Source of the DNA: a virus
Taxonomy: Duplodnaviria; Heunggongvirae; Uroviricota; Caudoviricetes
Length of the DNA stretch: 11,449 nt
Strand: one strand, 5' to 3'
Virus record (IMG/VR): IMGVR_UViG_2703718771_000002
Shown: positions 827-1,644 of the stretch, one piece after another
Layout: the number at the start of each line of letters is the position of its first letter
How positions within the stretch are numbered: position 1 is the first letter of the stretch
Translations under genes and position numbers: made by a program
Notes under the pieces: generated by a model
The model's input: the letters and a program-made list of their open reading frames with translations, nothing else
Databases searched by the model: none
Told to the model about the DNA's origin: nothing

Positions 827-1644
827 GCTATCCCCCTGTCTGCAAACTTCCCTTCCCGAACTCCCGTTAACGAATCTTCTCTCAGCAGGTAATCAAAATC
901 AGCCGTCCAGCCCGTGTCGTTGTCTCCGAAGTAAAACGGCTTGGCCTGATGCACAAACGCCCTGACATACGCTCTGAAACCGTCCACGTTTGGCGTTTTC
1001 AGTTGTGGGATGATTTTCTTCAGGCGGCGTTTGCGTTTCTCGTTGACCGCAACAGCGTGTGGCAGTCTGTCACCGACTTCGGTGTTGTAGGCGTTCAGGA
1101 AGGATTCGTAGTCGATTCGTTCTGCCTTGCGACGTTCAGGTTTAACCTGCCCATCGCCGCCCCCGTTAGGGGGTAAGGGGGTATTTGTATTTATTGTCTT
1201 TTGTATATTGTCTTTTGTGTTTAGCTGACTTGGCTTATACCCATTAGCCGACTTGGCTAATGTTTTATTAGCTGTTTTAGCTAATGTTAAGCTGTCCTGG
1301 CTAATCCACTGCGAAACCACCTTGTTCACTCCGATTTTCACGCCATCAGCAATGAGGAATTTTCGCTCAATAAGCTGGCGCTTGGCAGCGCAAACATGAG
1401 TGTGATGAATACCTGTCATGGCTGCTATCTGCGTGTTTGTGAGTCGATCCATCGGCTTATTGAATCCGTATGTCTTGCGCATGATAGCGAGCATCACCTT
1501 CAACTGCCGGACGGTTAAATCAGCCATCAGCAGACTGTCGGTAATCTCGTTAGCAACGCGCATGAAACCATCTTCGGTATCTGCCACGCGATGCTCCACG
1601 ACCTCCAGTTGAGGCCTGTAATCAGCTAACTTAACGACGCCCAT
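823..1644 (-). CDS. O: Replication initiator, lambda O-like (N-terminal iteron-binding domain, G/P-rich linker, divergent C-terminal domain)
   Basis: 273-aa ORF. The N-terminal segment ([38 protein letters not shown]) resembles lambda O as I recall it (ADLTKRQFKVLLAILRKTYGWNKPMDRITDSQLSEIT). SD GCAGGAG lies 6 nt upstream of the ATG at 1644. The gene contains the iteron array below. Confidence 0.85.
1181..1220. other. AT-rich DNA-unwinding region of the origin, with tandem ATTGTCTTTTGT 12-mers
   Basis: ATTGTCTTTTGT occurs at 1193-1204 and 1207-1218 in a T-rich tract. It lies immediately after the iterons in the direction of O transcription, the same arrangement as lambda ori. It is flanked at 1156-1180 by a G/C-rich tract that encodes a [11 protein letters not shown] linker. 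Confidence 0.5.
1221..1304. repeat. Replication origin iterons inside the O-like gene: four ~17-bp repeats of form TTAGCYGAYTTGGCTAA
   Basis: Copies at 1221-1237 TTAGCTGACTTGGCTTA, 1244-1260 TTAGCCGACTTGGCTAA, 1268-1284 TTAGCTGTTTTAGCTAA, 1288-1304 TAAGCTGTCCTGGCTAA. Start-to-start spacing is 23, 24 and 20 bp. Each copy has internal dyad symmetry (TTAGC...GCTAA), as in lambda ori iterons. Confidence 0.7.

What the first reader, a model, noticed from the sequence alone, without database searches (positions are those of the whole stretch)
1181..1304. Intragenic replication origin with four iterons and a tandem-repeat AT-rich unwinding element
Four 17-bp iterons with internal dyad symmetry lie inside the O-like gene, phased about two helical turns apart, followed in the direction of O transcription by an AT-rich block containing two tandem ATTGTCTTTTGT units. 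The iterons encode the repetitive [16 protein letters not shown] linker of the protein. This gives the exact origin and a testable binding site for the initiator.
Basis: partly seen in the sequence, partly recalled or inferred. Interest (0 to 1): 0.4.

Follow-up and report, generated by a model that had tools for sequence, protein, structure and literature searches.

The report
Lambda-type replication origin inside O gene
This is the ordinary replication origin of a lambda-like phage, sitting inside its initiator gene: four binding repeats next to an easily melted AT-rich stretch, laid out exactly as in phage lambda. The same sequence is already present in HK97, ST104 and hundreds of E. coli prophages.

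Summary
Four 17-bp dyad-symmetric repeats (TTAGCC-N5-GGCTAA) lie at 1221-1237, 1244-1260, 1268-1284 and 1288-1304. A 39-bp AT-rich block (1182-1220) carries two exact ATTGTCTTTTGT units. All of this sits inside a 273-aa Phage_rep_O gene (823-1644, minus strand), which is followed by a DnaB-type helicase gene.

The origin reading is strongly supported by comparison, though not by experiment. Measured from the conserved ACAAAAGA at the start of the AT block, the repeats start at -86, -66, -42 and -19. These are the positions of the annotated lambda iterons ITN1-4, and of the repeats in P22, whose record annotates a rep_origin there.

In 30 distinct relatives the repeat arms are as conserved at third codon positions (1.82 bits) as at first and second. 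Third positions of the adjacent N-domain score only 0.77 bits. The four repeats also fall in three reading frames, so selection acts on the DNA.

Relatives that keep these repeats all keep the helix-turn-helix segment TGIHHTH. Phages with other N-domains carry other repeats at the same positions.

The O gene is 98.7-99.3% identical to HK97, HK446 and several Stx phages, and the origin stretch is 100% identical to ST104. The origin stretch occurs in 444 of 5426 complete E. coli genomes. This is a textbook kind of element: correct, but not new.

The parts
823..1644 (-). O-like replication initiator gene (273 aa) that contains the origin
   Evidence: ORF and its translation. Pfam Phage_rep_O E=5.8e-33 over aa 19-113. 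PHROG 345 'replication initiation O-like' E=3e-105. 98.7-99.3% nt identity to O of BIS08P22, HK446, mEp213, HK97 and Stx phages.
1306..1590 (-). Coding region of the N-terminal origin-binding domain (aa 19-113)
   Evidence: Pfam match. Aligns with the N-domains of lambda O and P22 gp18.
1390..1440 (-). Putative helix-turn-helix and recognition segment [17 protein letters not shown] (aa 69-85)
   Evidence: The most conserved segment in the 30 relatives that keep TTAGCC-type iterons: TNTQI and the core IHHTH are invariant and the other positions are at least 90% conserved. Replaced by other residues in phages with other iterons: P22 MAPTK, lambda LPVKR, Klebsiella ILPHK. Its role as recognition helix is inferred.
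1288..1304 (.). Iteron 1, distal from the AT block; position of lambda ITN1 (-86)
   Evidence: TAAGCTGTCCTGGCTAA.
1268..1284 (.). Iteron 2; position of lambda ITN2 (-66)
   Evidence: TTAGCTGTTTTAGCTAA.
1244..1260 (.). Iteron 3; position of lambda ITN3 (-42); perfect dyad
   Evidence: TTAGCCGACTTGGCTAA, 6-bp arms exactly complementary.
1221..1237 (.). Iteron 4, next to the AT block; position of lambda ITN4 (-19)
   Evidence: TTAGCTGACTTGGCTTA.
1182..1220 (.). AT-rich block, probable DNA unwinding element; T-rich on the + strand
   Evidence: 25% GC and AT skew -0.67. Least stable 40-mer of the gene. Homologous to lambda's AT-rich region.
1193..1218 (.). Two ATTGTCTTTTGT units (1193-1204 and 1207-1218); on the coding strand ACAAAAGACAAT twice
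   Evidence: Exact pair. The core CAAAAGA is invariant in both copies in 30 relatives and is present in lambda, P22, Klebsiella and Erwinia phages. The two copies are read in different frames (TKD and QKT).
1160..1181 (.). GC-rich element CCCCC-GTTA-GGGGG-TAA-GGGGG flanking the AT block; possible third origin element or simply a Pro/Gly linker. Low confidence.
   Evidence: TRF 8-nt repeat. C5..C5..G5 is present in most but not all relatives. The hairpin is no better than shuffles.
1..826 (-). 5' part of the DnaB-type replicative helicase gene (runs off the window); overlaps the O stop by 4 nt
   Evidence: Pfam DnaB and DnaB_C. 87% identical to P22 gp12 over 267 aa.

Best explanation
Window 1182-1304 is the lambda-type origin of replication of an HK97/ST104-type lambdoid phage or prophage, embedded in its own initiator gene.

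Proposed mechanism:
1. Dimers of the O-like protein bind the four dyad-symmetric iterons (TTAGCC-N5-GGCTAA) through the N-terminal helix-turn-helix domain. The iterons are shown from sequence; binding is inferred.
2. The resulting nucleoprotein complex bends the DNA and, on negatively supercoiled DNA, opens the adjacent 39-bp AT-rich block at 1182-1220. This step is inferred from lambda.
3. The C-terminal domain of O then brings in the phage's own DnaB-type helicase, encoded immediately downstream, rather than a lambda-P/host-DnaB complex. This step is inferred from P22 genes 18 and 12.
4. Host primase and polymerase take over.

The N-domain plus iterons form one exchangeable specificity module. 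The C-domain plus helicase form another. The AT block lies at the joint between them.
For: Gene context is cI / cro / cII / small orf / O / DnaB-type helicase.

Geometry. Repeats start at -86, -66, -42 and -19 from the ACAAAAGA anchor in the window, lambda, P22, BTP1 and Erwinia phage 49, with a different repeat sequence in each lineage; P22 and BTP1 share theirs. The lambda sites at these positions are the annotated 'ori iteron 1-4'. P22 carries a rep_origin feature over the equivalent stretch.

AT block. It shares ACAAAAGACA-TAT-ACAAAAGA with lambda and is the stability minimum of the gene.

DNA-level selection in 30 distinct relatives. Arms score 1.81 bits against 1.25 for repeat centres and spacers. 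Third codon positions in the arms score 1.82 bits, against 0.77 in the neighbouring N-domain codons. The repeats sit in three reading frames.

Co-variation. All relatives down to 57% N-domain identity keep both IHHTH (within TGIHHTH) and TTAGCC-type iterons. P22, Klebsiella and lambda N-domains carry other motifs and other iterons.

Natural module swaps:
- BTP1 has the P22 N-domain and iterons joined to the window-type C-domain (97% identity).
- Phage 4A7 has the Klebsiella-type N-domain and iterons joined to the lambda C-domain (98% identity) and a lambda P gene.
- phiES15 has window-type iterons with a P-like loader.

The helicase is 87% identical to P22 gp12.

The lambda mechanism itself (O dimers on inverted-repeat iterons opening a 40-bp A+T region) is summarised in PMC5043065 and PMC7466680.
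Against: No experiment on this iteron class was found. No held paper prints the sequence, and the HK97 record has no rep_origin feature. The P22 annotation is itself only 'similar to phage lambda'. No structure of an O-family protein could be found by sequence, and my single-sequence model was unusable (pLDDT 38.8), so the recognition-helix assignment is inferred. The near-identity of the AT block between the window and P22 (93.5% over 77 nt) probably reflects recent recombination as well as constraint.
Confidence: 0.9

Rival explanations
1. The repeats are only the DNA image of a repetitive peptide linker (LAKTAN/LAKSAN) between two protein domains and have no function as DNA.
For: The two middle repeats do encode LAKTAN and LAKSAN. 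The region lies between the Pfam N-domain and the C-terminal domain.
Against: The four DNA repeats fall in three reading frames and give unrelated peptides: ISQDSL, LAKTAN, LAKSAN and KPSQLN. Third codon positions in the arms are as conserved as first and second (1.82 bits against 0.77 in the N-domain). Dyad symmetry is a property of DNA. The linker peptides of P22, lambda and the Klebsiella phage are unrelated, yet the repeat positions are identical.
Confidence: 0.02
2. The repeats are O-binding sites with a mainly regulatory role, such as autoregulation or a roadblock to pR transcription into the helicase gene, and replication starts elsewhere.
For: The sites lie inside a transcribed operon, so bound O would meet RNA polymerase. 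In lambda, O contacts RNA polymerase (PMC3017604, title and abstract).
Against: The adjacent conserved AT-rich block, homologous to lambda's unwinding region, is unexplained by this reading. No further copies of the repeat occur elsewhere in the window. Lambda's homologous sites are the origin.
Confidence: 0.04
3. It is a true origin by descent, but the copy in this window is a decaying relic in a defective prophage and is no longer used.
For: Most occurrences are chromosomal prophages: 458 of 461 places in E. coli genomes. The window's left operon is mosaic relative to any single known phage, with at most 57% coverage.
Against: The origin stretch is 100% identical to that of phage ST104 and 99.5% identical to that of the viable phage HK97. 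The O ORF is intact and the helicase ORF is open to the window edge.
Confidence: 0.04

Closest known systems
ori-lambda (phage lambda origin inside gene O)
   Same: It lies inside an O-family initiator gene. It has four dyad-symmetric iterons at identical offsets (-86, -66, -42, -19; spacing 20, 24, 23). A roughly 40-bp AT-rich, strand-asymmetric block follows on the side downstream for O transcription. The core ACAAAAGAC..CAAAAGA is shared.
   Different: Iteron sequence is TTAGCC-N5-GGCTAA here and TCCCTC-N5-GAGGGA in lambda. N-domain identity is 43%. The C-terminal domain is unrelated to lambda's. The partner is a phage DnaB-type helicase, not lambda P. The GC-rich element after the AT block differs from lambda's palindrome.
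Phage P22 origin in gene 18 (rep_origin in BK000583), with helicase gene 12
   Same: Same architecture and spacing. The AT block and the GGGGG elements are near-identical (93.5% over 77 nt). The C-domain is 61% identical. The helicase is 87% identical. A small orf lies between cII and O.
   Different: Different iterons (TTTACC-N5-GGTAAA) and an N-domain only 43% identical. This implies a different origin specificity.
HK97 gene O (gp54), ST104 gene 18, HK446, mEp213, and Stx phages 1717, 2851 and Nil2
   Same: The same element. The O gene is 98.5-98.9% identical across these phages. The origin stretch is 100% identical in ST104 and 99.5% in HK97.
   Different: Nothing of substance. These records simply do not annotate the origin.
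Six-iteron origins of Stx phages 933W and P27 (lambda-type O and P)
   Same: Origin inside the O gene, iterons followed by an AT-rich tract, and a variable iteron number. Relatives of this window also show 5-6 copies, for example phiES15, L061 and L065 (PMC7466680).
   Different: Those phages use lambda-type iterons and lambda P. The window has four iterons of another sequence and a DnaB-type helicase.
Iteron-containing plasmid origins (pSC101, R6K, RK2, P1)
   Same: An array of initiator sites next to an AT-rich unwinding region (PMC5043065).
   Different: Plasmid iterons are direct repeats bound by monomers, usually with DnaA boxes. Here the sites are dyad-symmetric, implying dimer binding, they lie inside the initiator gene, and no DnaA box is nearby.

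Membership tests
Lambda-type (lambdoid) intragenic origin | Lies inside the gene of a Phage_rep_O-family initiator, between its N- and C-terminal domains | tested here: met
   Pfam PF04492 E=5.8e-33 over aa 19-113. The repeats encode aa about 114-141.
Lambda-type (lambdoid) intragenic origin | Four or more dyad-symmetric iterons of about 17-19 bp | tested here: met
   Four copies with 6-bp inverted arms; 0 of 200 shuffles reach the observed count.
Lambda-type (lambdoid) intragenic origin | Iteron spacing and distance to the AT block as in lambda (20, 24, 23; last iteron 19 nt before ACAAAAGA) | tested here: met
   Offsets are identical to the annotated lambda ITN1-4.
Lambda-type (lambdoid) intragenic origin | AT-rich block of about 40 bp, of low helical stability, on the downstream side | tested here: met
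   25% GC. Least stable 40-mer in the gene. Shares the ACAAAAGAC core with lambda.
Lambda-type (lambdoid) intragenic origin | Selection on the repeats as DNA, and co-variation with the initiator N-domain | tested here: met
   Third codon positions score 1.82 bits in the arms against 0.77 in the N-domain. The repeats fall in three reading frames. TGIHHTH tracks TTAGCC-type iterons.
Lambda-type (lambdoid) intragenic origin | Initiator binds the iterons and opens the AT block; the fragment supports replication in cis | not testable with these tools
   Needs EMSA or footprinting, KMnO4 or P1 probing, and a plasmid replication assay.
Lambda subtype (O + P, host DnaB hijacked) | A lambda P helicase-loader gene downstream, and a lambda-type O C-terminal domain | tested here: not met
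   The downstream gene is a DnaB-family helicase. The C-domain has no meaningful match to lambda's (33% over 21 aa).
P22 subtype (gene 18 + gene 12 helicase) | A gp18-type C-terminal domain, and a gp12-type DnaB helicase gene immediately downstream | tested here: met
   C-domain 61% identical. Helicase 87% identical over 267 aa.
P22 subtype (gene 18 + gene 12 helicase) | P22 origin specificity (TTTACC-N5-GGTAAA iterons, P22 N-domain) | tested here: not met
   The iterons differ and the N-domain is 43% identical. It has the same module type but a different specificity class, the HK97/ST104 class.
Iteron plasmid origins | Directly repeated, non-palindromic iterons bound by Rep monomers; DnaA boxes | tested here: not met
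   The sites are dyad-symmetric. The only DnaA-box consensus match in the window is at 7255.

The most novel reading that the evidence does not exclude
The invariant pair CAAAAGA(C)-N7/8-CAAAAGA in the unwinding block may be a sequence-specific site rather than merely AT-rich DNA. It could, for example, be the single-strand contact of O or the helicase entry point.

The pair is kept at the codon level and is read in two different frames. It is shared by at least five iteron specificities, including lambda, and by at least three helicase-delivery modules.

Separately, pairs such as GIHHTH with TTAGCC, MAPTK with TTTACC and LPVKR with TCCCTC could give a readable recognition code for O-family initiators.
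Probability: 0.25. Interest if true: 0.35.

Novelty: already known. Interest (0 to 1): 0.13.

Why it matters
It matters little as a discovery. Origins of this kind have been textbook material since the late 1970s, and this exact sequence is present in HK97, ST104 and several Stx phages.

It has practical value. It gives explicit coordinates for an origin that GenBank records of HK97-type phages leave unannotated, and that about 8% of complete E. coli genomes carry. It provides a defined iteron consensus for building lambda-dv-like replicons that do not depend on lambda P. It also provides a clean natural data set (N-domain motif against iteron arm) for studying origin-specificity switching in mosaic phages, including Shiga-toxin phages.

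Tried and rejected
- Structure. A single-sequence AlphaFold2 model of O had mean pLDDT 38.8 and was unusable, so no fold search was run. A sequence search of the PDB gave no hit at E<=1.
- RNA and host sites. The Rfam scan of the window found nothing. DnaA-box consensus: no site near the origin.
- Promoter and terminator scan. No promoter-like site lies in the origin. One 'terminator-like' hit is simply iteron 3 (1244-1260) followed by T's, and I do not read it as a terminator.
- GC-rich hairpin at 1160-1173. It folds no better than dinucleotide shuffles. Across relatives the enrichment for stems is only modest and not universal. It is kept as a low-confidence part.
- Literature. No held paper contains the iteron sequence. 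The HK97/HK022 genome paper (doi 10.1006/jmbi.2000.3729) and the P22 genome paper (PMC94795) are not held. I therefore could not check whether the HK97 iterons were described in print. My recollection that lambdoid origin comparisons (lambda, phi80, 82, P22) reported conserved layout with differing iterons is from memory; it is backed here only by PMC8022706 and PMC5043065.
- Plasmid search. The hits are mostly phage-sized (about 35-48 kb) circles or mislabelled chromosomes, so they give no independent evidence of plasmid-type maintenance.

Full report
**What is in the sequence.**
Window 823-1644 (minus strand) is an intact 273-codon ORF. Its residues 19-113 match Pfam Phage_rep_O (E=5.8e-33), and the whole protein matches PHROG 345 'replication initiation O-like' (E=3e-105). 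It overlaps by four bases the start of a DnaB-family helicase gene that runs off the window (1-826, minus strand). That helicase is 87% identical to P22 gp12 over 267 residues. Upstream on the same strand lie a 53-codon orf, cII and a Cro-like gene; a cI-type repressor lies on the other strand. This is the immunity and replication region of a lambdoid phage.

**The observation.**
The repeat finder gives one family of four copies with spacings 23, 24 and 20. In 17-bp register the copies are:
- 1221-1237: TTAGCTGACTTGGCTTA
- 1244-1260: TTAGCCGACTTGGCTAA
- 1268-1284: TTAGCTGTTTTAGCTAA
- 1288-1304: TAAGCTGTCCTGGCTAA

Each has 6-bp inverted arms around 5 central bases. A degenerate pattern with up to two mismatches hits only these four sites in the window, against 0.18 expected, and none of 200 shuffles reaches that count. 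The pattern was drawn from the sites themselves, so this test is partly circular.

Next to the repeats, 1182-1220 is AT-rich. GC is 25% with strong T excess on the plus strand. The stretch holds two exact ATTGTCTTTTGT units (TRF period 14). By nearest-neighbour free energy it is the least stable 40-mer of the O gene and the third least stable of the whole 11.4-kb window; the other two are intergenic.

**Comparison with lambda and P22.**
On that anchor the four repeats start at -86, -66, -42 and -19 in the window. The same offsets hold in lambda, P22, BTP1 and Erwinia phage vB_EhrS_49. In lambda these positions are the features annotated 'ori iteron 1-4' in NC_001416. In P22 the curated record BK000583 carries a rep_origin feature over the equivalent stretch, noted 'similar to phage lambda'.

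The repeat sequence differs by lineage:
- Window: TTAGCC-N5-GGCTAA
- P22 and BTP1: TTTACC-N5-GGTAAA
- Klebsiella phage and phage 4A7: TTACCC-N5-GGGTAA
- Erwinia phage: TTAGCG/TTGC-type
- Lambda: TCCCTC-N5-GAGGGA

The AT block is homologous, not just analogous. The window reads ACAAAAGACAATATACAAAAGACAAT and lambda reads ACAAAAGACACTATTACAAAAGAAAA.

**Is the repeat selected as DNA?**
A scan of viral contigs with an N-domain alignment gave 80 loci. Thirty have distinct origin sequences, with N-domain identity to the window from 57% to 100%. All keep TTAGCC-type repeats at the same four offsets.

Information content is 1.81 bits per position in the arms, against 1.25 in repeat centres and 1.25 in spacers. 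Within the arms, codon positions 1, 2 and 3 score 1.77, 1.83 and 1.82 bits. In the last 90 codons of the N-domain of the same sequences, the scores are 1.50, 1.74 and 0.77 bits. The usual relaxation at third positions is therefore absent in the arms.

The four repeats lie in three reading frames (1, 0, 0, 2) and encode ISQDSL, LAKTAN, LAKSAN and KPSQLN. The two CAAAAGA cores are likewise read in different frames (TKD and QKT), and they are invariant in all 30 sequences. A peptide-repeat explanation is excluded.

**Co-variation and modularity.**
All TTAGCC-type loci keep the segment [20 protein letters not shown] and the core IHHTH are invariant and the remaining positions are at least 90% conserved. 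At the same alignment columns P22 has MAPTKC, the Klebsiella phage ILPHKC, lambda LPVKRC and the Erwinia phage KHLTHC. Each of these is paired with its own repeat sequence.

Natural recombinants separate the two halves of O at the AT block:
- BTP1 joins the P22 N-domain and iterons to a C-domain 97% identical to the window's.
- Phage 4A7 joins Klebsiella-type N-domain and iterons to a C-domain 98% identical to lambda's, followed by a lambda P gene.
- phiES15 has window-type iterons (five or six copies) with a P-like loader.
- Kapi1 and an Stx2a phage carry the window-type C-domain behind an unrelated N-terminal region. That region contains 12-bp CATGTGCGG repeats instead of these iterons.

This is the pattern expected if the N-domain reads the iterons and the C-domain recruits the helicase or loader.

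**Mechanism.**
The steps below are inferred from lambda (PMC5043065; PMC7466680) and from the P22-type partner gene. None was shown here.
1. O dimers occupy the four dyads and bend the DNA.
2. On supercoiled DNA the adjacent AT block opens.
3. The C-domain delivers the phage-encoded DnaB-type helicase.
4. Host primase and polymerase follow.

No DnaA box lies nearby.

**How known is it?**
The O gene is 98.7-99.3% identical to those of BIS08P22, HK446, mEp213, HK97 and Stx phages 1717, 2851 and Nil2, and 98.5% identical to ST104 gene 18. The 191-bp origin stretch is 100% identical to ST104 and 99.5% identical to HK97. It occurs in 444 of 5426 complete E. coli genomes, almost always chromosomally.

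The HK97 record does not annotate an origin, and no paper in the held library prints the iteron. The kind of element and its place in the O gene are textbook, and a 2020 paper states the principle for lambda, P22 and phage L (PMC8022706). I rate it already known and of low interest. The residual value is an explicit consensus and coordinates for the HK97/ST104 specificity class.

**Weak points.**
There is no direct evidence of binding or replication for this class. The recognition-helix assignment rests on alignment only: no solved homologue was found and my model was unusable. The GC-rich C5/G5 element at 1160-1181 is frequent among relatives but not universal, and it is not statistically distinctive as a hairpin. 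The long, near-perfect identity of the AT block between the window and P22 probably reflects recent exchange as well as constraint, because more distant relatives conserve only the CAAAAGA cores.

Noticed in passing
window 1783-1876 (+ strand): An oop-like antisense RNA unit. The reverse complement of 1786-1818 is ACTGGATCAATCCACAGGAGTAATTATGACAAA. This matches the conserved 33-bp oop promoter and 5' sequence quoted in PMC3349717. A strong terminator-like hairpin with a T tail lies at 1849-1876 and overlaps the 3' end of cII. Rfam has no hit.
   Followed up: partly
window 1160-1181: A GC-rich element CCCCC-GTTA-GGGGG-TAA-GGGGG lies directly after the AT block and encodes [10 protein letters not shown]5..C5..G5 arrangement recurs in most relatives, with differing sequence. 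Lambda has a different palindrome at the same place (GTCAGAG..CTCTGAC). As a hairpin it is not significant against shuffles.
   Followed up: partly
L009 (Kapi1) 1274-1405; L004 (Stx2_EH0787) 1274-1416: These phages have an O gene whose C-terminal half is the window type. Their N-terminal half is unrelated and contains arrays of 12-bp CATGTGCGG-type repeats where the iterons would be, with no ACAAAAGA core. This looks like a different origin-recognition module grafted onto the same helicase-recruiting domain.
   Followed up: partly
L005 (phiES15) 1252-1376; L061 and L065: Relatives with the same TTAGCC-type iteron carry five or six copies instead of four, with extra copies added on the side distal from the AT block. 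This recalls the six-iteron Stx phage origins (PMC7466680).
   Followed up: partly
window 1631-1792 (- strand): A 53-codon orf lies between cII and O and overlaps the O start by 14 nt. It matches PHROG 1331, function unknown (E=1e-37). It is the counterpart of HK97 gp53; P22 orf48 sits at the same place. Lambda lacks it (PMC3349717).
   Followed up: no
window 3750-4271 (+), 5331-5582 (+), 8860-9378 (+): Three sizeable ORFs in the leftward operon have no Pfam match. Around them lie N (4928-5272), a Rad52/22-type annealing protein (6335-7042), SSB (7043-7549), an Rv2179c-like 3'-5' exonuclease (7558-8106), Abc2 anti-RecBCD (8123-8419), Ead/Ea22 (9403-10191) and DUF551 (10193-10741). No single known phage covers more than 57% of the window.
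   Followed up: no
window 2502-2541 and 4628-4667: These are the two least stable 40-mers of the window and both are intergenic. The first lies between the cro-like gene and cI and is presumably the OR/pR-pRM region. The second lies upstream of N and is presumably the OL/pL region.
   Followed up: no
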